A stretch of 62,662 bases of DNA, counting the filler. It is 10 parts of 10 records of this genome, joined end to end, with 100 filler letters (N's around TTAATTAATTAA, not from the genome) between each part and the next. Parts side by side here need not be neighbours in the genome. Positions count along the whole stretch, not along the records: positions 14,454 to 19,966 come from SRR15195285_5387; 9 more parts are not named here. One strand, 5' to 3'. Positions 14,354 through 60,400 of this stretch are shown one piece after another. The notes beneath the pieces are model-generated. The model saw nothing but the letters and a program-made list of their open reading frames with translations. It had not been told where the DNA came from and did no database searches. The position numbers were made by a program, and so were the translations under genes. Position 1 is the first letter of the stretch. Each line of letters begins with the position of its first letter.

Positions 14354-14453
14354 NNNNNNNNNNNNNNNNNNNNNNNNNNNNNNNNNNNNNNNNNNNNTTA
14401 ATTAATTAANNNNNNNNNNNNNNNNNNNNNNNNNNNNNNNNNNNNNNNNNNNN
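14354..14453. other. Artificial contig spacer
   Basis: N44-TTAATTAATTAA-N44. Confidence 0.99.
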
Positions 14454-17400
14454 TGCAAGAGGCGCTGCCAGCATATCTTCTTCTAGAGATCGTCAAGAAT
14501 AACCGGGCGTCGTGGCTGCGCTGGATCAAAAAACACGACCTCGAAAAGACAGGCAAGGACCCAACGCGCCACACTCCAGCGACGCGGCGTAAGTTCTACA
14601 AAGATCCTCATGCTAAGAAGGTTCTCCCTGGTCAGCCTGCAAAACCGGCTACGGTGGCTCCAGCCAAAAAGGAGCCGAAATCTGCGGCGAAGAAGGAGGC
14701 GAATGCTTCGATGAAGAGAACAGCAACCTCAATACCAGTCTCGCCTGCCGGCGCCCCTAGCAAGCGCAACTCGAAGATGTCGGTGATTCTTGCCAGGGCA
14801 CGTGATTACGGAGTCGAGCAAGCTGAACTTGATGCCGCCATGGATGCTGCTGATCCACGCGAAGCAGTGGTGCGTTACAGTTGCGATTGTACTTTTGCCA
14901 CACACAAAGCTATTATGCTAGACCCGATGATGAAATTTTGACAGTTTCGATTTGAATGGAGAATTTAGACACTCTATAATATGTTGCTTCAAAACACCTC
15001 TAAGAAGTTCTGAGGACTAGACAAAAACCGTTTACATACTGGCACGCCTCGCTATCGCGTCCATGAATTGAACCATGTTGTCACTGCGTGACTGTGAGCA
15101 GGTTGGTGTGATGGCACAGTTTTTGACGAAGGCACACAAGGTTTCTGCACTACTCGAGCAGGCCCGTGCGGCGGGACTCCCCCAGACATCGTTGGATGCC
15201 GCCCTGGACGAGGATGACTCCAAGACAGCAGTTGCAGCACTACTTGCCCGTGGCGGCGCCGATATCGCTGCGCCATCGGACCCACCGCCTGCTAAGAAGA
15301 GGAAGACGAGCACAGCCCGCTCAGATGGCAAGGAGGTAGAACGAGCTGAGGCTGAGGATGAAGAAGAACCTCAAGAAGAATGGAAAGTAGATCGCGACGA
15401 CACCGCCGTCTGGAAGTTCGTCAAAGATAATCGGGAAGGATGGGTCGAATGGTTGGTTTCATCTCGGATGGCGAGCATCGGTCGCGACCCTGCACGGCAC
15501 GATGCCGCTACACTTAGGCGGTTCTGGAATAGCGAGCACCCACTGCCACAAAACGCATTTGGTAAAGCAGATGAAAGTTTGTTGCGAGAGATTGTGTCTC
15601 TGGCGGCGATGCGGGATGAGTTTGTTGAATACCTCAAGATCGCACCACTGAAGCTCTCCAAGACTGTCAGGTGCGAGCCTATCAGCTGCAGCCGCTCGCG
15701 CACGCTGGTCACAACGATCAACGAAAGACGAAAACAAATTCATGCTTTTATTTCAGAGTATTCCCTGGTTGACACGAATCGATAGGACTGACATTGAACG
15801 TTGCGAACCCTATTTATACAGCCGCCATCCGAACACAACCATCCGCAATGCTAACCAATACGGCGTTTCTCTTGTGTTCGCAGGAAGCAGTTCGACGCCA
15901 AGCGGCACTCGTGGCGGACACTAGCGGCGTTTATCGCCAGCCTGACATCGGCTTCGCACAGGGAACTGGCATGGGCTTTTTACGACCGGGAACATCCAGC
16001 GCCGAAAGCTGACCCGGACGAGCTTGCAGCTGCGACTGCTGAGAAGCGGAAGTCCTCAGACAGTTCGCGGCGCAATGCTTCATCATCGTCTACAAGGAGG
16101 TCGGGCAAATATCCTCAAGGAGGCATCTGGGATTTGATCCGACGAACTGAGGAGCATCCGGACTACAAGCGGCTGTATGGCCGCTTTCCAAGCAGCGGCG
16201 ACTGGCACAAAACTCCGCGAGAAGTTCCTGCTGCTGCTCGAGTAGCAGGGTGCACGCCACCGGAATTGATGGGAATGGACTGTGAGATGGGTGAGACAGC
16301 TGAAGACGAAAATGCAGTCACTGGACTCGGTGTGGTGGATGACGAAGGCGAGACTGTCTTGGATGAGCTGATTCGCCCGCCGAGTGAACTACTTGACGTT
16401 CGAACTGAGATCACAGGTTTTAAGATCTCCGATTTTGACGGTGCGTCTATTCGACATCCAGATCGTATTGATTAGGCTACGATGATGATCCAATTGTTTT
16501 GTCACTACGTCTGATTTGATTTCCTGAAATACGGCTGATCGTGACGCATAGCATACCACGTTCTGAGTGCTCGCTTCTATGTTACCACCAATCTGTTTGT
16601 GTATCACTATGCTGCTTTTAAACAAGCGTTCAATGTCATTCTGTTGTGCGCGGTAGATGTCAAGGTCACCCTTGCTGACGCACGTCACGTACTCATGGAC
16701 GAGATTGAAGAGCGGAAGAAAGCTGTTGGAGACGAAGGCATGGTTGTCCTTGTAGGTCACGCACTTCATCACGACCTAAAAGCGATGCATATGGACTACT
16801 GGCCTGTCATTGACACCTCCTTCATCTACAGCTACGAAGGTCTACCGCGAGCTACTCCCGCCCTCGCACAACTTGCCACGATGGTGCTCAAGCGTTCGAT
16901 TCGCCAAGAGGTCGATTCGCACCATTCTCAAGTCGAGGACGCACTGGCCTCACTGCAGCTAGCACAGCATCAGCTTGAACACGGAGAGGTTCGAACGCTA
17001 CCTCCTCCCGACACAGTTGTTCCAGCGCCGGCTCGGAAACGGCTGCTTGTCCATAAGCTACCTGCGTCTACGGCGCGTCGGGACGTGGCGAAATTGTTCA
17101 AAGGCTTGGTTCCTGCCGCCGAGGGTGTAGCGGCACACATGTGCAAGGTTGTTGCAGTGATTGACGGCAACAGCATTCCCAAAGACGACAACGATGAAAT
17201 TCCAAAAGAGGCAAAAGCTATGACAGTGAGTCCATTTGCTTAACCCGCACCCTCCCAAGCCAGATCATGGCTTGGGTACTTAGACATACACATTGTACTG
17301 CGAATCAATTGGACGATGAAAATCAATTCATGCTAACCTATACTGAAAGGCCCCACTCTGCAAAGAGAGGGATAGCTGACTGACACGAATCGATAGGACT

Positions 17401-18607
17401 GACGTTGCTTCGCACCTGCATATACTAGTTTTCATAACGTGATGCTCGGCCACATATTCACAACTTTTCATGTGCATTTTGGCAGGCTGCGCTGAAGTCG
17501 AAGTCGGTAACAGTGTGCTTCAAATCAGAGGCTGATTGCAACTGGGCATTCAAACAGCTCACAGGAGACGAGCACGCAGACAACCTTGGCCGGCCAGAGA
17601 AGCGCAACGCAGGTTCACTCGGGGTGACGGTGCGCATGTCTTGTTCGGAAGGAGGGCGGCAGTTTGCCTCGAGCAAGGTCAGTGCCCTGAAGTCTGTAGC
17701 GGCGGCGAAGAAAGACAAGAAACGAGCTGCGAAGTCCTCAGCGAAGGTACAGAAGCCGACGGTGGCGAAGGCCCAAGAATCTGACGATGAGGACGATGAT
17801 GACGATGAAGATGCGGCAACCCTAGTTGCCGCAAACAGCGAGAGTGATGAAGACAACCAAGACGATGAGGAGGACGGTGAAGAGGAGGATGCTGACGACG
17901 ATGGCGACGATGGTGATGATGAGTCGGATGAGGATACCGAGAATGCAGCTGGTGCTGTCAAAATGGCTACTGAGGAAGCGCTCCACGCAGCTTCGGAGGC
18001 AGAAGACGAGGATGATGAAGACTTGTCAGTTGACGAGGATAGCGGCAGCGATAGTGGTAGCGACGATGACGATGACGAAGACAGTATTAGTGACACTGAC
18101 GATGAACTGACTACTCGCACAAGTACGGCATCGAAAAAGAGCACCACTGCAAAACGGAAGGTACCTTCACCGAGCTCTGGTGCCAATGGCGTGGCTGGCC
18201 GTGCCCAGACTAAACTTACCGCTGCGGCGATCGCGAACATGAAAGTTGCGGAGCTGAGGCAGGCTTGTGCAGATCGTAAGCTTAAAAAGACAGGCAACAA
18301 AGAGGAGCTGCGACAGCGCCTCGCAGCGCAGATAATCCTCGAGCTGCGCGAGAGGAAGGCGGCGAAGGAGTCGATGGCTGCAACAGCAGAGGCACTCCCG
18401 AAGAAACGAAAAAGGCAACGAATTTCAGGAGGAACTAGTACGGAGGCGGTGCTAGACACGGAGGAGCTTGTGGCATTCGCGAAACAGCAGCGGCCCGCAT
18501 GGCTTGCCTGGCTGACCAAGCACGCGAAGAAAGGCAAGACAGCCGCAAAGGACCCGGCACGGCATACTGAGGATGATCTCCGGTCATTCTGGCAGTCGCT
18601 GCAGTGA
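14454..18607 (+). CDS. DEDDh 3'-5' RNA exonuclease, SDN (small RNA degrading nuclease)/REXO1-like, with RRM, acidic tract and SAP domain; 5'-partial; snoRNA host gene
   Basis: Introns 14870-15101, 15671-15883, 16441-16656, 17226-17485 all splice in frame. Catalytic motifs 'GMDCEM', 'LVGHALHHDL', 'VIDTS', 'HSQVEDA'. 'LIRRTEEHPDY' precedes the nuclease as in plant SDN1. RRM 'RLLVHKLP...VCFKSEADCNWAF'. SAP 'MKVAELRQACADRKLKKTGNKEELRQRL'. Confidence 0.85.
14918..15020 (+). ncRNA. Intronic box C/D snoRNA (U61/SNORD61-like; 18S rRNA 2'-O-methylation guide)
   Basis: C box ATGATGA 14927-14933, D box CTGA 15010-15013, terminal stem CTAG(a)CC/GG(a)CTAG. The 13-nt guide CCTCTAAGAAGTT is the reverse complement of the conserved eukaryotic SSU sequence AACUUCUUAGAGG. 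Confidence 0.8.
15712..15803 (+). ncRNA. Intronic box C/D-like snoRNA, paralog A (target unresolved)
   Basis: Closing stem CAACG-a-TCAA/TTGA-a-CGTTG, degenerate C box AAGACGA (15725-15731), D box CTGA 15788-15791. Shares AATTCATGCT and a 23-nt identical block with the intron-4 copy. Confidence 0.6.
16476..16571 (+). ncRNA. Intronic box C/D snoRNA with 18S rRNA antisense at D'
   Basis: C box ATGATGA 16482-16488, D' CTGA 16511-16514, D CTGA 16563-16566. TTGTCACTAC upstream of D' is complementary to conserved SSU GUAGUGACAA. Confidence 0.7.
17299..17414 (+). ncRNA. Intronic box C/D snoRNA, paralog B (target unresolved)
   Basis: Closing stem TGCGAA-t-CAAT/GTTG-c-TTCGCA, C box ACGATGA 17313-17319, D' CTGA 17343-17346, internal CTCT-GCAA-AGAG GNRA hairpin, D box CTGA 17399-17402. 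Confidence 0.7.
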
Positions 18608-19362
18608 TGTTGGTCCGAACGATTATGTGCTGCACTGCGTGGATTGGTGGGCTCCAAATTGTTTTCAGGTGCGTACGATGCCCTTTCAGGTGTTTAGAGA
18701 GACAGAGAGAGAGGCAATGTGCACTTTGCAAGTGACGAAAACATCATCAGCTTTGCCGTGAAGCGTTAAGGCAGGGCCACTTGCTGCAGCCACGAGCCGC
18801 TGGCTGGGCTGTGGAGAGGGGTCCGCGCAGTAGATCCCCAGCTTTTGCTCCGGGTTGTGCTCTGTTGGTATCCGACTGGGCATAATCCAGAACACATGAG
18901 GCTGGCGAGAAACTGCACCTTGCGCGAACAAAAACATGACGACCAAGAGTCGCGAGATAGTACTTGATGCAAAACAGCGCGTAGCTGCCGTCTAGTATGG
19001 CGGGGAAGCACACGGACGCTGCCTTGCGTGCCAGTAGAGCTCACTGTGTGTGTTGGTGTGCTGGTGGTGTAGGTGGTGTACTCTAATTTCTCTCAAGTGC
19101 TTGGTTGAGTCCCCATTGAGCAAAGGATAGCTGGGCATCACCCACAGTTACAGCGGCTTCCGGGGTATGCGTAAATGCAATCGGCCGTTCGGATGATCAA
19201 TTCATGCTATATTTATTGACGATTTACTGGGTCGGCACTGCACCGCAGCCGCAGCCACGCCACCAGCACCGACCCTGCCAGCACAGTGCAGACCCCTAAG
19301 TGGTGCCAGCCAGCGCGTGAACAAAAAGCCCATGTGCATACACGCCGCACGCCGAGCTCCAT

Positions 19363-19966: not shown

Positions 19967-20066
19967 NNNNNNNNNNNNNNNNNNNNNNNNNNNNNNNNNN
20001 NNNNNNNNNNTTAATTAATTAANNNNNNNNNNNNNNNNNNNNNNNNNNNNNNNNNNNNNNNNNNNN
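19967..20066. other. Artificial contig spacer
   Basis: N44-TTAATTAATTAA-N44. Confidence 0.99.
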
Positions 20067-48447: not shown

Positions 48448-51400
48448 CTATCCAACAGATAGTGCACGGATAAGGTCTGCTTTTGCGTGCGCAACCGCAA
48501 TTTCGTGCTCGTCTCCGACTAGAAGCATTTCGCCGCCTGATCTCAATCCGCATTCCGCTAGAGCGCGGGTCTCATCCTCCAGCGGGAGGTTTAATGGCCC
48601 ATTCTTTCTCTCCGCCACGAGCAGCTCCTGCTGCTCAACCGGAAACTCAGTACACTCAGCTAGGAGGGACTTGAGGAACCCGACGGTCTTCGCGGGTGCA
48701 ACATGCACGCGATGCGTCGCACCACTCAGTTCGCGCACTGTAATTTCGACGGGTTGGCTCTCGTCCACCTGCGGTTCTGGCTCTGGCGCTGGCTCAGGCT
48801 CAGGCTCGGGTGGTTTCTCCTCTCTGTTCACCTGAAACAAAGCCTTCAGGCCCTTCTCTGTGACCTTGCTCACCCAACCAGTTTCCCCTTCAGCGCCGAT
48901 GTTGTGTGCATCCAGTGAGAAGTGCACTCGAACGACGTCGCCAAACGAGCTTTCTTCAAGCGCGTCAACGCACGCTCCAGCCAAAATGAACCCGAGCTTC
49001 TTACTCTCGAGCTCCTTGCCACTGCTCACCGGCATGTCACGCCGACACTCATACCGTTTTCCAAGCTTCGGTTTCGGTTTGTCAAAATTGTTCGCAGGGA
49101 GATGGGAGAGATCTTCGCCTTGATCGAGGACGACGATTGACTGGCCTGGAAGCCGCATATGGACAGCGTCTTGAAGCATGACTTTCCCGGTATCTGTCAG
49201 CGGGTTTGCGGAGACGTCCAGCAGCTGCAGCATGCGGAATTTCTGGTCGCCGCCTTCTCGCGAGTCGAGGAGCTGCACACACGACATCGTAGCTTCAAAG
49301 CCCATCCCGATGTTCGCCATCCGTAGCTCTTTGATGTTTGAGTTGGCTAGCAGCTCAATGAACGGAATGAATGCTGCAATGTGCTCGTCTGGTCGCCAGG
49401 CTTGCCCAATCAATGGGTTCTTCGACAAATTGATGGAACTGAGCGTTGGCAGCACCTCTGGCTTGAACAGCCACCTGGTTAGTATTTGCAGATCATATGG
49501 CCCAAAATTGATCCCAGACAAATCTAGACGGTCCATCACTGGCGTGCCTTCGCCGCCGAAAGCCTCTACGACCTTATCGTTCTTGTCCAGCTTCTCTCGA
49601 GGGTAATCAGAAGATCCAGGCGCGTTTAGAGTGTACGCTTGACTGTGCCAACGATCAACACGAAGACCGAGGCCTGTTGTCTGCGATGAGAATGTACAAA
49701 GGCGATCCAGCCTGCCGATCGCAGCTGCAAGGACGGCCGCTTCACCTGGGCCAATGCCCTTTGCATCATTGATTTGGAATTGTGGCGACTGCCCGCCTTC
49801 TCCGTGCTGTGCGGGAGCCTGTGGCAACTGATTCTCATCATGTTGGACGACGGCTGAAGACATGTTCGACATACTGGTCGAATGCAACAGCTGCGAACTA
49901 GAAGAAGTGCGTGCGAATTCGGCAGCCAAAGATGGCGACAGTGAGGTGCTGGATCGTTGGAGTTCTTCCTTCACGCCGGCTCGAACAGAGTCGGAGCGAG
50001 ACATCCCACGAGGAGTAGCCGTTGATGTACCACTTCTGGTTCGCATGAGGCCACTGCTCGTTCCGCTTAACGTCAAACCTGATTCAGACTGACCAGCTGG
50101 TGCCAGGACAGGACTCCCAAGGGAAAGGCGTACAGTAGATGAGCCGGTCTCGAGCAGCTCAAAGCGCCGTCTCAGCATGTCTGGTCCCCGCCTTGGCCAC
50201 CTGTCTGTGTGCAGCAAGTGTTCACCACCTTTCGGAAATTCCTGAGCGATACGTTCCCAACGCTCCCTCGCAGTGCTAATTTGTTCACCCTCTTTGTAAA
50301 TACCTGCCAACCTACGCAGCTCGTTGTCCTCTGCTAAAGTCCAGGTTGTGAAGTCTAAGGCCGATATGGAGCTCTCTGTGTCCTGAACAGGTATAGTCAT
50401 ATCATTTGCCAAGACTACCTCTTCGAGGTTATCCATGCCCTGACCTTCCGGAAGTTCGATGACGTACGCAATCTTCTTGCCTCCTAGCGTACCAATGCCG
50501 CTGTCAGTGCCATTTCTCGGTAGGAGAAGTTGACGAATGCCACTTGAAAACTCAGACTTCTCGCCGACAACGTTGCAAAACACTTCGCATCCAACGCTAC
50601 CCATGCCAATGTTGCCTAGATTCAGTTCACAGATGGCGGTTGTCTCCAGGCCTCGCACTGTGGCAGTCGGTTGATCTTTTCGCCTGCCATTACACAGCAC
50701 ACGAAATGCTTCGACACCATCTTCGTCATCTGGCTGCTTCAGAGAGCCATGGAAACTCTCGTCATCAGCGTCGTCGTCGCCATCCCCGCCTTCGCAGTCA
50801 GCCGGCTGCTCAGCCCAGGCAGGTGTACGGTTGCTCCAGACCTTTCCCATCAGAGATGGGTTGTTGGAGAGATCAAGGGATGATGCCAAAGCATGGACAT
50901 CGGGCTTGGAAAGCCAACACGACAGAAGTTCGGCATCTGCAGGACCAAGCGACTTATCGGACAGATCTATGTGCTCATCTAGACTGTCTAGCGTGTACAC
51001 CTGTGGGTATCCCACAATGCCTGTAGAATCCACAGTGAGCCGTGTGAGTCTACCAGTTGCGCCGTCGGCCCTGTACCTCCAATCAAACTGCAACTGTTGC
51101 TCAATATCTGCATGCTCAGCGTGTTTGTCTGGGCGTCCATCCAAGCAACTCCACTGAACATCCGGCTCAAGACTAACTGACACACCAGGAGCAAGGAACT
51201 CAGATGCCCCAGGGGTGTTTTCAGTTCTGATGAGCACTCTTGGCGACCAGCCTTCCAGCTTTAGACCAGCGCCTGGCTTTGCCCGCTCTTCTTGTCCAGT
51301 CTGCCAGTTCAACTCGTTTGTAAAAAACCCAACTTCCTTGGCTTCGTTAGGGTGAGCTTTCGATACATCTTTCTTAGTCATCACTGCACCGCAAAATGCA

Positions 51401-54400
51401 AGGACGCCAAACGCTCCGACGTGGCACGAGCTTATGTCCAGCTCACGAATACATGACTCAGCATTTGGCTTGCCGCAAAGCGACTTCGCAAGAGCCTCGA
51501 TCCCTCTTGTGTCAACGTCATACTGCATTCGACACTTGCACCACGGCTGACACCGAGTCTGACAATCTGTCCAGTCCGCTTCACGTTGTTGGAAATGTTG
51601 CTCAACAACTGCTTCCTTGTCTACCAGATTTCGTTTTTTCAATTTCTGGCGCCACTGAAGTAGCTGTGATCGTAGCGCAGAGGACATGCAAACAGTACTG
51701 GTAGGGGTGTCGAATGTCAGATTGTCATCTCTCGCCAAGTCCAGTACAGCCTTCACATCCATGTCAACTGACCCGGGTGGACGAGAAGAAAACTTGAGAC
51801 TCCAAGGCCGTTTTGTTGCTTTGATCAAATTTCGTAGCACGTTCCACTTTGTGCCAGGTTTTACTGGGTTGCGCTGGAAAGAAATCAGGTACATCCCTAT
51901 CGTAACACCGGCAGTATCCAGAATGTAGTTTCCCGTCAAGTCACTCTTCGGGTCCAGCTTTCTCACAGACAGGTCCTCGCTCAACTCAAACGTACCGGAC
52001 ACTACAGTCACGTCGACGGTTGCGGCTGTTACTTCAATCGGCCTTGCGACCCACACTGCCATGTCCTTCTGAAGCCTGGCATACAAGCCAGGGTCGTTTA
52101 ACTTGAAGTCGTCATCGGCTTCTTCCTTGGCGAGAATGATCCGTCGCAGATCTTCGATACTTTTGGCGCGCTTGTCATTTCGGGCATTGGCACAGGCTAG
52201 GCAGAAAAATCGGCGTCGGGCCCGAGCAGTTCCACACACTGCAACTTTATCTTTGCAAGCACTGCATTTGCGTTGGCACCGGCTGCTGCAGATGCAACAC
52301 CAGCCGGGGTCCTTTTCCCAGAAAGACCCTGTCAGTGGATTTCCGACCACGTTCAACTTGTTAAGTGTCGGGAGGATGGTGCTCTCTTTATCACTCAACG
52401 CTTGGGCAATGGACTTGATGTTCAGTGGTCCCAGCCCACAATTTCCGAGGTCCAGGTCAGTAATGTGCGTCTGTGACAATGCTACTTTGACGTTCGCAAG
52501 CGAGTCTGGAACACCTGCATTCGAGGGTGGCGGAGCCGTCCACCATAAAGAGCCATCTGACAGTTCATCTATGGCGATACCACCGAGGTAGTTGCCAGCC
52601 AGTCGCAAAGTGTTAAGATTTTGCTGGATACCGGCACCACGTAAGGCTTCTGCCATTGCTTCAGCACTCCTCGCACCCAGCCCGCAGTACGAAAGATCCA
52701 GCTCCGTTACACATATTCCAGGGTGGCTGAGCGCCATGAACAGTGCTGCGGTGCCAGTAAAATCTTCTTCGCTGGCCGGGTTCGTGTGCAGCGGTGCAAC
52801 TGGATCGTTCGAACAAATCAGCGACGTTCCCGTGCCGCAATTGCCATTGGTCAACGGATTGCCATCTAGAAGTAAGGTATGAATCAATGAGTTTGCCCAG
52901 GCTTCTGCCGGCGAAGCCAATTTATACAGTGCGTCTGCATCCAGCTCACACCTGCTGAGATCAAGCACGCGCAAAAACCGAGAAGCCTGGATGAGGTCAC
53001 GCAGCGCAGTCATTGCACACAGGTGGTCCACACGGACACCGGCGCCAGCCGCGGCATCGACCAGATCCACGCCCGTAATAGGATTCCCCTGTACATCCAG
53101 AACACGTAGATTTGCGGAGCTTTCGAACAACAGTCTTGCTGGCGTCGGGCTGAGGCGAGTCTCACCGACTCGCATCTCAGTTACAGCACTGGTTTTAAGG
53201 GATTCACAAAAGTCAGTCCAGGACTCAAATGATTTCATGCGTAGCTGTTTTCGCTCCTCTTTGGTCGTCTCGAAGTTAAACAAATAACAATTATCTGAAA
53301 TATCTATGGACGTCAGCTGCTTGCGCGTGTCTTCTTTCGCAAGCCACGCAGCCAACAGACCAGAATCGGCCGGACCAAGATTTTTGTTGCGTAATATCTC
53401 TTGTTTGTTGAAACTGAGCTCGTCATCTGTGTCGTAAGGAGATCCAAGTGAATACTTTACCGCCCCATACTCACTGACTTCTCTGCTGCCTGCACCAGTA
53501 GAATACACTTCTAGCCGTCTCAAGTTGAGCCTGACGCTAGAGTTTCGAATCCACCCAGTCAGAAAAACCACGTCGGCGACACCCATACCACTCAGGTCAC
53601 GTAGTTCCCACTTGATTCCAGGGATGGACGACTGGTTGCTTTGCAGTTTCAGCACACGATCGCTGATATCGATCTGCACAGTCTCGACAAGTGTTGGTCC
53701 AGTAGTGTAGTCCCACATTGCTGCTCGCTGAGCGCGAATAGCTTCGGTGTGCCCTCCAAGCACGCGCGCGAGCTGAAACTTGCCACGAATTCCTATCGAG
53801 CTGGATGTGATGTCGCTATCCGCGTGACCCATAAACACCCGCTTGATCTGGCTCCTAACTCGCTTCAAGGTCAGCCACGTGCACACCAGGATAGCGTCGT
53901 TGGGGCCAAGTTGCGAATGTTGGAGATCAAGTTGATGCGGACCTGGATGGTCGCGCGAGCTTTCGTCGCGCCAGGCACGAATCGCATCGTAAGTTGCCTT
54001 AACTGTTGTGCGATCTAGACTATCCATTTCGTCCCAAGTACAAGGCGCATTAGAAATGTCCCATTCTCGATCAATTGACTCGTACCGAAAGTCTGCTGAC
54101 AGCGTGTAGTGTACGGGGTCATCGGGCTTACTGGTGTTGTCAATCGTAAGAATCGATATCGCGCAGCCTTCCGAGTGTTTCTCTGCTTTCACCAACGCAT
54201 CTGCAAAGATTTTCAAGAATTGGCGCGGCAAGTCAACAGCTTGACAATTTTTGTTGAGGTGCCGTGGATCCAGCGATGCCATACCACAGTCTGATATATC
54301 CAACCCAGAAAACCTCGTTCTGGACAGACAGTCGCAAGATTCTTCCCAGATGTTCAACCATGCCAATGGGCTGCCAGTCACTTTGACGCACGCCTGTTCA

Positions 54401-57400
54401 GTAAAGTGGTCGTCGATCCCTACAAGCTTGAATGGAAATTCATCAGTCTTACTAGACTCCCGTTCTGCAGCAGTCGCAGCGTCAGAATGATCGTCGGCTG
54501 CTACTCTGTGCAACGAAACAGCCGAATTTCTAATCCCAGTACTCGAGTCGACTTCTGGAACATTGGCTACTTTTGCGTACGACTTCTGCCGAAACTCTTT
54601 CATGGGAAAGATTGCGACCAAGTCACGTTCCGATGGCCGAGATCCTGAGATCGTCCACAAAAGCGGGTTACGCTTCGCAATCACTGACACTCCGTTGCCC
54701 ATGTGGTTCATCGGAATATCACCTTGAGAACATAGGATCAAGAAGTCTCGCCAGCCCTGGGCATCAATCCGATTGTCGCTAATATCTAAAACACGGAAAA
54801 TTCCTTGCTTGACCGACAACCCTCCGGACAGCGGGCTGCCGCCCTCCACTGGGGCCGCGAACGCTAAGAGCGCGTTGCCACCAAGTAGGTTGCTGCTTAG
54901 ATCGACCTCTTCCAGATTTTCGAGCTTGTGAACGACAGACCCCAGTGCTTCAATGCCGGAAACATCAACGTCAATCATATCCCATTTGTGTGGCATAGAT
55001 CCAGACAAGAAGTTCCCATTTAGCTTCAGCTTTGTGTATTTACAGCAGATGTTGTCAAGCCACACGGCAATGAGTTTGCAGTCTGCTGCACCAAGATACT
55101 TGTCACTCACCACGAGCTCTGTATCCTCAACATCAAGTGTGTAGCAGTATGGATCAAGAAACTGAGGCTGCGGATGAGACGGAAAGCCTGAAACTTGAGG
55201 CTCAGCTTGCTTAACAAACTCTTTGAGTCTACAGCTGGGGCAATTCTTATCGCCTTTTGCACCTGTACAAATATTGTCTTGGAAGCATTTATCCGTGGAC
55301 CTGGAGCGTCGTCCACGCAGACCTGTTGACCGCAGAGATAGGCGCTTGATCCTTTTTGAAACATTGTTTTTGCCAATCCATGCACCAATCAGCAGGAAGT
55401 CAGCTGTAAGCATATTTGAATACTTTTCGGCTGTAAAATCCAGAAAATCCCATTCAACATCAAGCTCATACTTCGAGTGCGGTGTCGGGTTGTCGACGGT
55501 CCTTTCCTCTCCAATACTTAGCGACTTGAGGTTTGGCAATGTAGGAATGGCAGCTGCGACGATTAGTATTTCTCCTGGTTCTAGAAATGCTCCTGAAAGG
55601 TGTAGTTCTTCACAACGTGAATCGTTGACAGCTATGACAGCAGGCTTATGACCGCTGATCAGACCACCGACGACGAGTTTCTTCAGCCTGACGTCCACAT
55701 CCGTCATCAAATTTGCTACAGCTTCACCTCCATCAAGTCCAAGAGGGTTTAGTTCTAGACGCAACGCACTCAAACCTTCATGGACAATCATCTTGGTCGG
55801 GTCATGAGGATCAGGCACTAGTTGTTTTTTGGTTCGCAAACCATGTTCGACTAGAATTTGGGCAGCGGGGCCATGCAAACCAGTGTCATAAGCTTCGAAC
55901 TCCCTCAGACCACACGCAAGTCGATCGCCACTTTCTTTAAATGCCTTGCATATGTACTGCCACTGCATCTTCTCGTGGTCAACAAGGATATCGTTGTCCG
56001 CCTCTTTGCCGATTTCTGACTCCTCATACTCTTTCAGATAAGGAAAGAGCAGGTTCTTGCTCAGGCTGACAGCAGCGACTTTCCTTGCAGCGCGTGCCAC
56101 TTTGATGTCAGCCGCCAGAAGCATGCAGTCCACAAGCGTTTTCTTTCGTGGGTCCTGGTCTGTCGGACTCCAATTCACGACAGTTTGAGATGGTGTCAGA
56201 CCACACAGTGTTTGCAAAGAAGGACTGTCTTCCAAAATATGGATCATGTCTTGACATGAGCTTCCAAGTGGGTTGCCAACTATGTTCAGGCTGGTCAGGC
56301 TCTGGATATTGCGACCAAGTTTCCATTTGGTGTGCAGCTTTTTCTCATGCCAGGTTTCTTTCTGCGAGTCAGACTTGTGCCGATTCCGTTCTGAAACCGT
56401 CTTGATCAACTTCATGCTTGGGGACATCGGGAGTCCACAATACGCGCACACGTGGTTGCTCTTCTGGTCAGGCCAGTCCATTGCAAGCTCGCGGCGATTT
56501 TTGAAGGCCATCTGGACAAGCAAACCGTTCGGGGTCCTCCATCGCAACATCAGCGGCCGCTGCATGTTCTTTCGGCCCATTAGCAAACCCCCCTTGGTTG
56601 ACAATAAACCGGCTCGATTGGCTTTGGGATTCCAAAACGTGGCGCCTACTGTTCTCCTGACGTCCGTCCATCTCCATTCTACCTCCTGTACCAGTGCAAG
56701 TTCCTTGGCCACATGCCGCTTATGCTGGTCCCATCTAACTCGACGGGCAGTGTGTGTCTGAACCAAATCTTCAAACTGCACTGCCTCAGCATCTAATGAG
56801 TACGAGCGAAAGGAAGGCCTCCCACTGTGACCCAGAATTCCTCGTACGTAACACGGCTGTCTCGATTCGTCCGAGTTCTCCATGTCTGGCGTCCGATTCA
56901 AAGTCGCGTTTGATTCTGAACCTTCACTGTCTTTGTCGGCATCAAGATCGCTACCGTCCGAATCTGACAGTACATCGTGTATTGTCCGCAGCCACTCATT
57001 TGACTCGCACAATTCAGTGCCTCGGGCAATCTGTCGTGTCGTGTTGCAGCGCTGGAAGATCTCGTTGCAATCAATTCCTGTAGCTTTTGATGCTTCCTGT
57101 AGCGATGGCCACGGACCCAGACTGTTCGTGCTTCCTTCGAAATCCACATGCACAAAGGTAACTTCAACAATCATGCGACGGGTCAACCGTGCATGTTCGA
57201 CACCCGTGTCGCTCCAACCTGTGAGCTCGATGCAATACACGTCACCGCTTTCAGCATCCAAACCGTCAACATCAATAGATGTAATCCACTTGGTGCATTC
57301 AAGCGGTGGGTGCCAACGGCTTAGCTTCTCGACCTCTGCTTCAATCGTTGTGCACAGCGCACGAGTAAGGTTTGCGAATTGCCCAGTGTCCCTAGTCTCC

Positions 57401-60400
57401 ACCGACCATTGCCTACTTGGGCCCATGACGTCATCGACGAGACACAGACTGCAGCAAGAACGCTCAGATGATATTTCAACCAGCACATTGTCGTTTTTCC
57501 CAAACTCTTCGGACTGAGTTTCATCTTGATAGCTAGGGGATAAGGCTGCGGGTGAAGTAGACGCATCCGCAGGCTGAAGTACAAGTTTTTCTGCAAATGA
57601 TCGCATGAAGGATGAAGTGATACCGCAGTAGCTCAAGTCTAAAGTTCGAATGCCCGAATTGGGTAAAGACTCAACAAGGACATTGAAGTGTCGCCTCATC
57701 TCTACGCCACTCAGATCAACACTCTCAATCCGAAGGAATCGACTGAAAATGACTGGCGCAAAGTTTTTCAAGTCATCTACGGCCATTCGTTTGATGCGTA
57801 TTTTCTCGATGATAGCAGGGTCTAAATGTTTAGTCTTGCACAGTGTCTTGAGCCTAGCTTTGCAGCCGTTCGTCAACGTAAGCTCAATGTGGGAATGAAT
57901 TTTCTTGAGTGTCTTCATCAAGAGCAGCCCACCGGCCGTAGAAAGATCGACGTCGCGTATTTCAAGCCTCACACGCCAGAACGGGGTATGAGGGTCCGGT
58001 GGGCGAACTACATCGTCTACGAGATACGTCACAGCGCCAAATGCCTCGACGCTTGTGCGTCGAAGTCGCTCTACCGCTTCAACACTTCCCCGTCGCATTT
58101 TGGCAGTGACTTTCTCTTTGCTTCTCTTGTTAACAACAATGCGACGTTTTCTTTCACCCTGTGCTCGCAAAATCATCTTCAGCGACGCTCCTTCAATTTG
58201 CTGCCCGTTCGCACGGTTCGCTGTTGCTAGGGTTTCGTCTCCTAGATCTTTCGCCAAACCAGCAAAACGAGAGATCATATTGACGTCATCCATGCGTTTG
58301 CCGGCCATTTCAGAGGTAGTACTCGTAAGACCTCTGAAACTATTTGACTGGAGATGAGTAACACTTGATTTAGCAGCAGAGACGGTCTTGTCCAAATGCT
58401 TCATGCCCATCCTGGTCACCTCCTGTGCCGCACCAGACGCCATCTTCGAACCATCCTGAACTAAATTCATAGCTCCGGTGAACACATTGCTGCCAACACG
58501 AGCGAGTCCTTTCCCTGACAAAGACCTGGACCGGTTCAAATGACCCCCATCGCCCTGCTTGTCATCAATGTTGACTTTGTCGGCCTCGTCTGCGCCGTCA
58601 GTGCTATTGAGTGCTGCACTGCGCCGTGCAGCTTCGAGACGCGCAAGTTCGCTTCTCTGCAGCTCATTCTCGTCCTGGGTAGTGCTGTATTCGCTGACAT
58701 AAAGCCAAAAGTTCTTACTCTTAGACCACGCTTGCTCGCTTGCTGTCTCCTTCCAGTAGCTGATAGGCTCCTTGGAATCATTCATGCTCCAGTCAGTGTC
58801 AACATCCAGCCAATTCAGCCCCTGGCGTAGCCCTGCCAGAAAGTCCTTTCGGTTTTCTAGCATCATCACAGCGTCCTGAACGTGCTGTTCGTGGTGAGCC
58901 AATGCGCGTGCTTGATAGCCTAGTGCCTTCCCAGCATTGTCTGTCGGTTTCTTTGCAGGCTCAGCGTCCCCAGCACCAAGTGGAATCACATCCAGTGGTG
59001 CAATGCGTGCAGCGCCACCAAACATTCCAAGTTTGCTAGTCGCTAGTGCTGCCGCCTCCACTGTGCGACCTGCTTCGCGGATATAGTCCATTTCATCCGG
59101 GGTATCTTCCACGCCCACCGCGTTCTTGTTGGCTTCTTTGATGGATGCCTCCATCTCATTTGAAAGCAATTCTACCAGTTTCTTCTCCCTTCTCGAGTCG
59201 GCTGGTATTTTGCTTGGCATGAGACCTTTACTGTGTTTGAGTGCATAGAACCAACCTCGCACCTCACAAGCCTCACAAATGCCATATTTCTCGCGATGTT
59301 TTCGCAACGGGATTCCTAGCGGCACATCACGCTTGGGCCCAGGAACTGCGGAGCTGTAGCAGATGCACCCCTTAGACTTCGCAGAATTGCAGAATTTTTG
59401 CTTGGGTCGATTGTGCTCATCCACTGCATCACTTCGTTGCGCTCGTTCAAGGACGGCAAAGAAGTGTGCTTCCGTTATTTTGACCGCATTGTCTGCCGCA
59501 CGAGCATCCAGGTCAAACGTGTTTTTGATCCGGTCGAAGTCGAGGCCAGGAGCAGCTTTGCAAAGTGTGTGCAACTCCGATAAGTCTAGGGTTCCTCGTC
59601 CATCCCTGTCTACCCATTCCCAGACAGCTTGCGCTTGGGCGTACAAGAGACCACGATCAAATCCCAATTTGAATCTGTCGTACGAACTCCAGGAAAATTC
59701 ACTGCCGTGACTGTCACTCAACTTTTCCTGCACCATCTCTAGTCGGCGTTTCAAGACAGGGTAGTCCACCTGGCGGACATTTGATGAGCTCTTGCTGATA
59801 ATTTCATGTGCCTCCCAGCCAACTATCTTCTTCTTGTACCAATAGAATGCAAGCAGAACTGCAACCACATTCGACGCCAGCAGGCCGATAAAGATCGAGT
59901 AGGACTGGATAGGTTGTTCGCTACAGGTTTCGCAGTCGGTACAATCGGATTGCTCGGAACAGGCACCGGAAACGGCATCGCAAACCCCATTGAGACCCAT
60001 CGCTAGGCCATTGTGTATACATGAATCGTCAGCCGAAGAGTCTGGCAGTGCAGTAAAGTTCGGGGCCGTCTCAGATACCACGCATGCCCCGGTGCTTGAC
60101 CCCGGGCTGGCTCCGTAATAATATACCACAAACGAAGCATAGAAGCCGTTGATGCTAGCCATGGCTAGACCTCCTACACGTACAGCGTTGAGCGTGAGCA
60201 CACTGGTGTAGTCGCGATCGTAGGTCGTCAGAGTTAGCTGAAACAGCACCGAAATTTCGATACTGGCGACCATAATCCACGGGTAGCAGTCGCCCACTGC
60301 ACTGGCAATGAATGCTAAAATGAATTTGAACTGAAAGCTCACGATCCCACACACACGATCGATGATGACGATCGACTGTTTCGCTTGGGAACTGGATTGA

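What the first reader, a model, noticed from the sequence alone, without database searches (positions are those of the whole stretch)
15712..17414. Duplicated orphan C/D RNA pair with an identical 23-nt guide+D box and a second conserved element
Seen: TGACACGAATCGATAGGACTGAC is identical at 15770-15792 and 17381-17403, and AATTCATGCT follows the C box in both, while flanks and closing stems have diverged. That pattern points to selection on two separate pairing elements. The C boxes are non-canonical (AAGACGA, ACGATGA) and copy B has a GNRA hairpin. I could not assign a clean target. Partial candidates are LSU UCCUAUC(AUUGUG) with bulges, 5.8S AUCGAU plus UGAAUUG (collinear bipartite pairing), or U6 UUAGCAUG. 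Bipartite pairing would resemble processing or acetylation guides rather than a plain methylation guide (inference).
Basis: partly seen in the sequence, partly recalled or inferred. Interest (0 to 1): 0.72.

Follow-up and report, generated by a model that had tools for sequence, protein, structure and literature searches.

The report
Paralogous intronic box C/D snoRNA pair
Two related small nucleolar RNA genes sit in two introns of one gene of a marine microbial eukaryote and share a guide sequence plus a second short element, a layout already known from ribosomal RNA methylation guides, so the finding is real but fairly ordinary.

Summary
The 23-mer is exact at 15770-15792 and 17381-17403 and occurs nowhere else in the window. 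AATTCATGCT lies 5 nt after the C box in both copies.

Both copies have box C/D anatomy: C, D', C', a 15-nt guide, CUGA, and terminal stems of different sequence. Each lies in an intron that spliced RNA contigs confirm. The host is a DEDDh exoribonuclease gene whose two other confirmed introns also carry C/D snoRNAs.

Two metagenome relatives keep both elements in different flanks. No Rfam family matches.

"Orphan" is only partly right. I could not get the organism's own rRNA. In rDNA of other eukaryotes, guide positions 2-10 pair perfectly with a conserved LSU domain V sequence, in 8 of 11 variants. That puts the methylation on the A equivalent to yeast 25S A2758. The second element can pair 19 nt upstream of that site. 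Only 2 of 20000 shuffles give both matches, under criteria chosen after seeing the site.

This is the known "extra base-pairing" design.

Verdict: new members of a known kind, target provisional.

The parts
15712..15803 (+). Copy A, whole box C/D snoRNA: 5' stem 15712-15721, C box AAGACGA 15725-15731, second conserved element 15737-15746, D'-like CAGA 15754-15757, C'-like CTGGTTGA 15765-15772, guide 15773-15787, D box CTGA 15788-15791, 3' stem 15794-15803
   Evidence: Sequence. Terminal stem predicted in the MFE and the centroid. An ortholog in L001 keeps the body, with a different stem (GGAGG/CCTCC) and a different host gene.
17299..17414 (+). Copy B, whole box C/D snoRNA: 5' stem 17299-17309, C box ACGATGA 17313-17319, second conserved element 17325-17334, D' CTGA 17343-17346, internal hairpin with GCAA loop 17352-17371, C'-like CTGACTGA 17376-17383, guide 17384-17398, D box CTGA 17399-17402, 3' stem 17404-17414
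   Evidence: Sequence and fold. It is 98.3% identical to its ortholog in L002 over 116 nt. The intron flanks are 71.2% and 76.1% identical and the neighbouring exons 86.8-91.0%.
15773..15787 (+). D guide of copy A (CACGAATCGATAGGA); identical in copy B at 17384-17398
   Evidence: Positions 2-10 counted from the D box are Watson-Crick complementary to CCUAUCGAU of eukaryotic LSU domain V in 8 of 11 distinct variants. Duplex energy is -13.5 kcal/mol.
15737..15746 (+). Second conserved element (AATTCATGCT), 5 nt after box C; identical in copy B at 17325-17334
   Evidence: Also kept in L001 and L002, although the search pattern did not demand it. It can form 9 pairs (7 Watson-Crick, 2 G-U) with AGUGUGAAU, which ends 19 nt upstream of the guide's LSU site, in 3 of 11 LSU variants. 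In 7 variants it forms 8 pairs with one A-C mismatch.
15671..15883 (+). Intron 2 of the host gene; holds copy A
   Evidence: GT..AG joint in one spliced RNA contig of run X12.
17226..17485 (+). Intron 4 of the host gene; holds copy B
   Evidence: GT..AG joint in spliced RNA contigs of runs X12 and X16.
14456..18668 (+). Host gene, 5' end cut by an assembly gap. Exons are about 14456-14869, 15102-15670, 15884-16440, 16657-17225 and 17486-18668. It encodes a DEDDh-type 3'-5' exoribonuclease with an acidic region and a SAP domain
   Evidence: Frames and joints. Exon 4 matches Small RNA degrading nuclease 1 (5z9x, E 5.6e-10), ISG20L2 and ISG20. SAP domain E 5e-10.
14922..15017 (+). Another C/D snoRNA, in intron 1 (14870-15101); resembles U61
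   Evidence: Rfam snoU61, 22.1 bits, below the gathering score of 55. Its D guide has 11 nt of exact complementarity and a 13-bp duplex to SSU rRNA of L079. Intron joint seen in X12 and X16.
16475..16570 (+). Another C/D snoRNA, in intron 3 (16441-16656)
   Evidence: Boxes read. Its D' guide pairs with GUAGUGACAA of SSU rRNA. It is 96.9% identical in L002 against 73-79% for its intron flanks. Joint seen in X12, X16 and X19.
19185..19240 (+). Third copy of the 10-mer (19199-19208), preceded by GGATGATC, with no D guide and no CTGA; probably a decayed relative

Best explanation
Copies A and B are paralogous, intron-encoded box C/D snoRNAs of a marine microbial eukaryote. They would be released from introns 2 and 4 of a DEDDh exoribonuclease gene that also hosts two other C/D snoRNAs.

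Each copy has one working guide, the 15 nt before box D. That guide most likely directs fibrillarin-type 2'-O-methylation of the adenosine in the LSU rRNA sequence GGCCUAUCGAU. This adenosine is equivalent to yeast 25S A2758, in domain V, between the known sites Um2729 and Gm2791.

The guide duplex there is short (9 bp, guide positions 2-10). The second conserved element lies in the otherwise unused C-to-D' guide region, 5 nt from box C. It supplies 'extra base-pairing' to the LSU stretch AG(N3)GAAU. That stretch lies 19 nt upstream of the guide site, on the other side of a small rRNA hairpin.

Shown: the snoRNA anatomy, the intronic position, the conservation, and the complementarity to other eukaryotes' LSU. 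Inferred: the target in this organism, the methylation, and the helper role of the second element.
For: Anatomy:
- C box, D', C', a 15-nt guide, CUGA, and 23 nt from C to D' in both copies.
- Terminal stems are predicted in all 4 sequences, with 3 different stem sequences.

Setting:
- All four introns are confirmed by GT..AG joints in RNA contigs.
- The neighbouring introns carry C/D snoRNAs whose guides match SSU rRNA.

Selection:
- Copy B is 98.3% identical to L002, against 71-76% for its intron flanks.
- Copy A is kept in L001 inside a different host, a WD40 gene.
- The 10-mer is kept in both relatives although the search did not demand it.

Target:
- In the composite rRNA, the site GCCTATCGATCC was the only one with guide positions 2-10 all Watson-Crick.
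- The same site recurs in 9 rDNA loci and in 8 of 11 distinct LSU variants.
- Of 20000 shuffles of guide and second element, 302 found such a core anywhere. Only 2 also had at least 9 pairs for the second element within 70 nt.
- Duplex energies are -13.5 and -8.4 kcal/mol.
- The site numbering fits six anchors taken from the table in PMC11542601.

Precedent (PMC3116282): extra pairing elements lie in the second guide region of single-guide snoRNAs, pair upstream or downstream of the methylation site, and go with the shortest guides.
Against: - The organism's own rRNA was never seen.
- Guide positions 11-15 are identical in A and B, yet do not pair at this site in any of the 11 LSU variants. 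Their conservation is unexplained.
- 3 of 11 variants have a mismatch at guide position 6. In 7 of 11 the second element has an internal A-C mismatch.
- The criteria of the shuffle test were fixed after seeing the site, so 2 of 20000 overstates the support.
- The equivalent position (yeast 2758, Arabidopsis 2759, human 4335 by my count) does not appear in the one table passage I read from PMC11542601, which lists plant, human and yeast sites.
- The two predicted target halves (AUUCGUG and CAUGAAU) are complementary to each other. This model does not explain that.
- All four C boxes lack the U at position 2, and copy A also has C at position 5.
- There is no direct evidence of a stable small RNA.
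Confidence: 0.42

Rival explanations
1. These are real C/D methylation guides, but the true target is a lineage-specific sequence absent from the reference rRNAs (an expansion segment, a spacer, or another RNA). It would have the form UCCUAUCGAUUCGUG, a loop, then AGCAUGAAUU. This is a hairpin whose two strands are both bound by the snoRNA, with the methylated A just 5' of the stem.
For: - All 15 guide nt and all 10 nt of the second element are invariant in four genes. That fits a target pairing with all of them.
- The two predicted target halves form a 7-bp stem with one G-U, whereas the snoRNA elements themselves pair less well (an A-C mismatch). This is read from the sequence. My rough estimate puts the chance of it at about 1%.
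- No full-length match exists in the complete rDNA unit L079 or in the partial rDNAs of the other contaminant genomes scanned.
- PMC3116282 proposes that extra pairing helps to open structured targets.
Against: - No such sequence was found in the window or in viral contigs. It could not be sought in the organism's own genome.
- The guide is kept between the window's organism and the more distant L001 organism, which argues for a conserved rather than fast-evolving target.
- The conserved-LSU match of the best explanation would then be a coincidence at roughly the 1e-3 to 1e-4 level.
Confidence: 0.25
2. The target is the first reader's LSU site, the 5' flank and loop of the helix that follows GAUGUCGGCUCUUCCUAUC. 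The methylated A would be equivalent to yeast 25S A2887. The guide would pair with UCCUAUC-AUU-GUG, and the second element with the directly adjacent AGCA-GAAUU.
For: - 22 of 23 consecutive LSU nucleotides are matched in order by the two elements.
- It is the best joint site in the complete rDNA unit L079, with score 35. 43 of 2277 shuffles reach that score.
- The two duplexes would be collinear and only 1 nt apart.
Against: - It needs three bulged snoRNA nucleotides, two of them inside the guide duplex, and only 7 bp are contiguous next to box D.
- Five different full-length versions of this helix, plus one more with Ns, were seen in the rDNA loci. All have the same length and none has the extra bases.
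- The duplex energy is weaker, -10.2 against -13.5 kcal/mol.
- The site is not listed as methylated in the table passage I read.
Confidence: 0.1
3. These are C/D RNPs that do not methylate. They would act as a folding chaperone, processing factor or acetylation-type guide that clamps two rRNA segments.
For: - Two antisense elements are present.
- The C boxes are degenerate in all four genes.
- No Rfam family matches.
- No perfect target was found.
Against: - The guide abuts a perfect CUGA, and the best rRNA match starts at position 2 in the methylation register.
- The best SSU joint site, where the known acetylation guides act (recalled), scores 27, below the shuffle mean of 30.
- Bipartite pairing is already explained by extra base-pairing in methylation guides.
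Confidence: 0.1
4. These are not functional RNAs: either a recent local duplication or a dispersed repeat that happens to look like a C/D RNA.
For: - The C boxes are non-canonical.
- A third partial copy at 19199 looks decayed.
- No small-RNA evidence exists.
Against: - There are only 2 copies in 62.7 kb and 2 loci in 241 million metagenome records, so it is not a dispersed repeat.
- Between A and B, everything outside the boxes and the two elements has diverged while the stems keep pairing.
- Copy B is far better conserved than its intron, and better than the coding exons.
Confidence: 0.05

Closest known systems
Single-guide box C/D methylation snoRNAs with 'extra base-pairing' (for example yeast snR75 and snR76; van Nues et al. 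2011, PMC3116282)
   Same: One guide next to box D. A second conserved antisense element sits in the unused guide region and is complementary to rRNA close to the methylation site. The guide duplex is short. The C'/D' motifs are divergent.
   Different: There is no sequence relation to those snoRNAs. The predicted site is not a known methylation site in yeast, human or plants. The two rRNA segments are separated by a small hairpin (19 nt) instead of being directly adjacent. The target in this organism is not verified.
Intron-encoded snoRNA clusters in ribosome-biogenesis or RNA-processing host genes (one snoRNA per intron)
   Same: All four confirmed introns of the host gene carry a C/D snoRNA. 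The ortholog of copy A sits in an intron of a WD40-repeat gene that carries further C/D-like RNAs.
   Different: The host genes differ between relatives, so the snoRNA moved or was retained independently of its host.
Bipartite non-methylating C/D snoRNAs (acetylation guides snR4/snR45/U13; processing snoRNAs U3, U8, U14).
   Same: Two antisense elements in one C/D RNA, and no perfect single target.
   Different: No Rfam match to any of them. The best SSU pairing is at chance level. The guide sits in methylation register next to a perfect D box.

Membership tests
Box C/D snoRNA | Box D (CUGA) near the 3' end | tested here: met
   CTGA at 15788-15791 and 17399-17402, and in both relatives.
Box C/D snoRNA | Box C (RUGAUGA) near the 5' end | tested here: inconclusive
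   AAGACGA, GAGATGA and ACGATGA (the last twice). Both GA dinucleotides are kept in all 4 genes. Position 2 is never U, and copy A also has C at position 5.
Box C/D snoRNA | Terminal stem that brings C and D together | tested here: met
   Predicted in the MFE and centroid of 4 of 4 sequences. The stem sequences differ: CAACGATCAA/TTGAACGTTG, GGAGG/CCTCC and TGCGAATCAAT/GTTGCTTCGCA.
Box C/D snoRNA | Internal D' and C' boxes | tested here: inconclusive
   CAGA or CTGA lies exactly 23 nt after box C in both copies. C'-like CTGGTTGA or CTGACTGA lies directly before the guide. Both motifs are divergent.
Box C/D snoRNA | Guide complementary to rRNA or snRNA, with the target paired to the 5th nt upstream of D | tested here: inconclusive
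   A 9-bp Watson-Crick core at positions 2-10 on a conserved LSU site in 8 of 11 variants from other eukaryotes. The organism's own rRNA was not available.
Box C/D snoRNA | Stable small RNA bound by Snu13, Nop56, Nop58 and fibrillarin | not testable with these tools
   Only assembled contigs of metatranscriptomes could be laid. They cannot show a small RNA.
Any Rfam snoRNA family | Covariance-model match | tested here: not met
   0 matches at gathering score in the whole window. None of the 9 sub-threshold matches in 14500-18500 overlaps A or B. 0 matches at E up to 10 for copy A alone.
C/D snoRNAs with extra base-pairing (PMC3116282) | Conserved non-box, non-guide element in the second guide region, complementary to rRNA next to the methylation site | tested here: inconclusive
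   The element is conserved in 4 of 4 genes. It forms 9 pairs with the LSU stretch that ends 19 nt upstream of the guide site in 3 of 11 variants, and 8 pairs in 7 of 11. The organism's own sequence is unknown.
Acetylation-guide C/D snoRNAs (snR4, snR45, U13) | Two antisense elements flanking a target cytidine in SSU rRNA (feature recalled) | tested here: not met
   The best SSU joint score is 27, against a shuffle mean of 30.0 for the whole rRNA. No Rfam match.

The most novel reading that the evidence does not exclude
The two invariant elements are built to invade both strands of one RNA hairpin (predicted stem AUUCGUG/CAUGAAU). That hairpin would be specific to this lineage of marine protists. 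The snoRNP would then act as a strand-opening clamp, with or without methylation, on a target that no reference rRNA shows.
Probability: 0.15. Interest if true: 0.55.

Novelty: new member of a known kind. Interest (0 to 1): 0.3.

Why it matters
If the assignment is right, it adds a lineage-specific 2'-O-methylation in LSU domain V, between known sites and not far from the peptidyl-transferase region, in an abundant marine protist. It would also give a clean natural example, outside fungi and animals, of a short guide backed by extra base-pairing across an rRNA hairpin. It also shows that snoRNA paralogs can be read for function from what stays invariant. Beyond that it is routine snoRNA annotation.

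Tried and rejected
- Whole-genome search: no genome is held for this window.
- Rfam: nothing matches A or B, and nothing in 18600-19320.
- The genome search with the eukaryotic LSU family failed twice, the machine giving no answer. I used patterns instead.
- Ungapped scans of the first 62 rDNA loci found no site with 12 or more of 15 pairs in a usable register.
- Duplex folding with the whole region between the two elements was dominated by unspecific pairing of the middle part and was dropped.
- The D' guides of A and B have no canonical rRNA site. The best cores are 8-9 of 10, at different places for A and B.
- There is no complement of the guide inside the window. The only other match has 3 mismatches, and 17 of 100 shuffles do as well.
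- The viral-contig scan for the hairpin-type target gave 0 hits.
- A scan of the window, L001 and L002 for CTGA preceded by at least 11 nt complementary to rRNA recovered only the U61-like snoRNA convincingly. The other 4 hits lie in coding sequence without boxes.
- The protein Atlas search on a phosphatase gave no useful taxonomy.
- RNA contigs leave the bin 17300-17441 (copy B) uncovered in all 4 runs, and the bin 15738-15879 (copy A) uncovered in 3 of 4. Contigs cannot show small RNAs, so this says nothing either way.
- U6 and other snRNA candidates could not be tested, because no such sequence was available from a tool.
- Supplementary figures of PMC3116282, which show where the extra pairing sits in each snoRNA, were not seen.
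Full report
**1. The observation.**
The 23-mer is present exactly twice in the window, at 15770-15792 and 17381-17403 on the + strand. No further match appears even with 3 mismatches allowed, and none in 100 shuffles. The 10-mer AATTCATGCT occurs at 15737 and 17325, and a third time at 19199, against 0.13 expected. In both copies it begins 5 nt after a C-box-like heptamer, AAGACGA or ACGATGA. A pairwise alignment shows identity confined to the boxes, the 10-mer and the 23-mer.

**2. What the two copies are.**
Both have the full layout of a box C/D snoRNA:
- a terminal stem and a C box;
- a 23-nt spacer ending in CAGA (A) or CTGA (B) as D';
- a C'-like octamer (CTGGTTGA or CTGACTGA);
- a 15-nt guide, a perfect CTGA, and the 3' half of the stem.

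Folding predicts the terminal stem in all four sequences studied, although the stem sequences differ between A, its relative in L001, and B. That is the pattern expected if the pairing rather than the sequence is selected.

No Rfam family matches. There were 0 hits at gathering score in the window. None of 9 weak hits in 14500-18500 overlaps A or B. Copy A alone gave 0 hits at E up to 10.

**3. Setting.**
The window is eukaryotic. The stretch is held, with half or more of its sampled words, by 14 public runs; 13 are labelled marine or seawater metagenome and one rhizosphere metagenome.

Spliced RNA contigs confirm four GT..AG introns in one + strand gene:

| Intron | Coordinates | Runs with the joint |
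|---|---|---|
| 1 | 14870-15101 | X12, X16 |
| 2 | 15671-15883 | X12 |
| 3 | 16441-16656 | X12, X16, X19 |
| 4 | 17226-17485 | X12, X16 |

Loose ends in three runs indicate a fifth intron at 18669-19072.

Copy A lies in intron 2 and copy B in intron 4. Intron 1 holds a U61-like C/D snoRNA, with a sub-threshold Rfam hit and a guide that pairs with SSU rRNA. Intron 3 holds another C/D snoRNA whose D' guide pairs with SSU rRNA.

The host protein is a DEDDh 3'-5' exoribonuclease. Exon 4 matches Small RNA degrading nuclease 1 (E 5.6e-10), ISG20L2 and ISG20. The protein also has a SAP domain.

**4. Relatives.**
A scan of 241 million metagenome records with a 19-mer (guide plus D box) found only two loci.

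L002 is a close relative with the same host gene. There copy B is 98.3% identical over 116 nt, while its intron flanks are 71.2% and 76.1% identical and the exons 86.8-91.0%.

L001 is a more distant, G+C-richer organism. An ortholog of copy A lies in an intron of a WD40-repeat gene. The body from C box to D box is nearly identical, the C box is closer to consensus (GAGATGA), and the terminal stem is different (GGAGG/CCTCC).

The search demanded the guide, so its presence in these loci is not independent evidence. The 10-mer was not demanded, and it is kept in both. This is not a dispersed repeat, and selection acts on the whole RNA.

**5. Search for the target.**
The organism's genome is not held, and the window has no rRNA. 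I therefore collected eukaryotic rDNA that contaminates prokaryote assemblies:
- 62 contigs found through a published rDNA primer;
- a complete unit, L079, with SSU, 5.8S and LSU confirmed by Rfam;
- 16 more LSU 3' pieces from 13 of 45 genomes.

No rDNA has a full 15-nt complement of the guide. One site recurs where guide positions 2-10 are all Watson-Crick: GCCUAUCGAUCC, in LSU domain V. Of 11 distinct variants of this region, from 16 loci, 8 have the perfect core and 3 have A in place of U opposite guide position 6.

The fifth-nucleotide rule puts the methylation on the A of CCUAUC. I counted on L083, L090 and L079 against six sites listed in the table of PMC11542601: Um2729, Um2735-equivalent, Gm2791, Gm2793, Gm2815 and Um2921/Gm2922. 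That makes this A equivalent to yeast 25S A2758. It is not among the plant, human or yeast sites in the passage I read.

**6. The second element.**
The LSU reads AGUGUGAAU (3 variants), AGUACGAAU (7) or AGUACUAAU (1) at a stretch that starts 27 nt upstream of the guide's 15-nt site. Its last paired base lies 19 nt before the first paired base of the guide core.
- The 10-mer forms 9 pairs (2 of them G-U) with the first form.
- It forms 8 pairs with one A-C mismatch with the second form.
- The six flanking positions are constant and all match. The three middle positions vary between eukaryotes, so a perfect match in this organism is possible but unknown.

Between the two paired stretches lies a small hairpin (for example CCAUG-AAAG-UGUGG) that covaries among the variants.

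In a composite rRNA of 5634 nt, 302 of 20000 shuffles of guide and element gave a 9-bp core in register anywhere. Only 2 also gave at least 9 pairs for the element within 70 nt. I set these criteria after seeing the site, so the true significance is weaker, but it stays well below the guide-only figure. Duplex energies are -13.5 and -8.4 kcal/mol.

The geometry is sensible. The element starts 5 nt from box C and the guide ends 1 nt from box D. Both duplexes therefore leave the C/D motif, and the rRNA hairpin loops out between them (inference).

**7. Comparison with what is known.**
This is the design described by van Nues et al. 2011 (PMC3116282; passages read). Conserved elements that are neither boxes nor guides are complementary to rRNA upstream or downstream of the methylation site. 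[quoted passage not shown] They go with the shortest guide duplexes and raise methylation up to five-fold. Bipartite pairing is therefore no argument for a processing or acetylation role.

**8. What does not fit.**
- Guide positions 11-15 are invariant in all four genes but unpaired at the proposed site in every variant.
- The complements of the guide's 5' half and of the 10-mer (AUUCGUG and CAUGAAU) could pair with each other, which the proposed site does not explain.
- Both points fit a rival in which the real target is a lineage-specific hairpin bound on both strands. I could not search for it in the organism. It is absent from the window and from viral contigs.
It reaches a joint score that 43 of 2277 shuffles also reach. 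Five different full-length versions of that helix, plus one more with Ns, all have the standard length.
- The 5.8S idea scores below the shuffle mean.
- The U6 idea remains untested.

**9. Verdict.**
These are genuine, selected, paralogous intronic box C/D snoRNAs (about 0.9). They are most likely rRNA methylation guides with an accessory pairing element (about 0.7). The specific LSU domain V site is the best candidate but is provisional (about 0.4). They are new members of a known kind, and interest is modest.

Noticed in passing
window 14922-15017 (+): U61-like box C/D snoRNA in intron 1 of the same host gene. Its D guide has 11 nt of exact complementarity (a 13-bp duplex) to SSU rRNA of L079. 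The Rfam snoU61 score is 22.1 bits, below the gathering score of 55.
   Followed up: partly
window 16475-16570 (+): Box C/D snoRNA in intron 3. Its D' guide pairs with GUAGUGACAA of SSU rRNA. Its D guide has no match in the rDNA examined. It is 96.9% identical in L002.
   Followed up: partly
window 19185-19240 (+): A third AATTCATGCT, preceded by GGATGATC and sharing TCAATTCATGCTA with copy B. It has no D guide and no CTGA. It is probably a decayed member of the family, lying downstream of the fifth intron.
   Followed up: partly
window 18669-19072 (+): A fifth intron of 404 nt, inferred from identical loose ends of RNA contigs in three runs. No Rfam match inside it, and I did not look for an H/ACA RNA by eye.
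   Followed up: partly
window 14355-14454 and 19968-20066: Runs of N with TTAATTAATTAA in the middle, so the window is a scaffold joined from pieces. The first gap cuts the 5' end of the host gene.
   Followed up: no
window 17726-17867 (+): The acidic low-complexity coding stretch of the host gene attracts RNA contigs of other organisms (summed depth 119-189, against 3-15 next to it). It also gives several odd joints, which look like artefacts of the repeat.
   Followed up: no
window 48448-62661 (-): An open frame of at least 4737 aa that runs off the window. Only leucine-rich repeats are recognised in it.
   Followed up: no
L001 about 2790-2690, 1975-1860 and 1100-985 (- strand): Other introns of the WD40 host gene in the distant relative also hold box C/D-like RNAs, with UGAUGA and CUGA and guides resembling rRNA complements.
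   Followed up: no
L003-L064, L073-L095: More than 62 contigs in prokaryote species-representative genomes carry eukaryotic rDNA, which is contamination. One holds a complete SSU-5.8S-LSU unit (L079) in an isolate assembly.
   Followed up: partly
window 15220-15792, run X15: One metatranscriptome contig runs unspliced from exon 2 into intron 2. It stops matching exactly after the D box of copy A and then continues with 68 unrelated letters. It may be an allele of a related strain whose flank has diverged.
   Followed up: no
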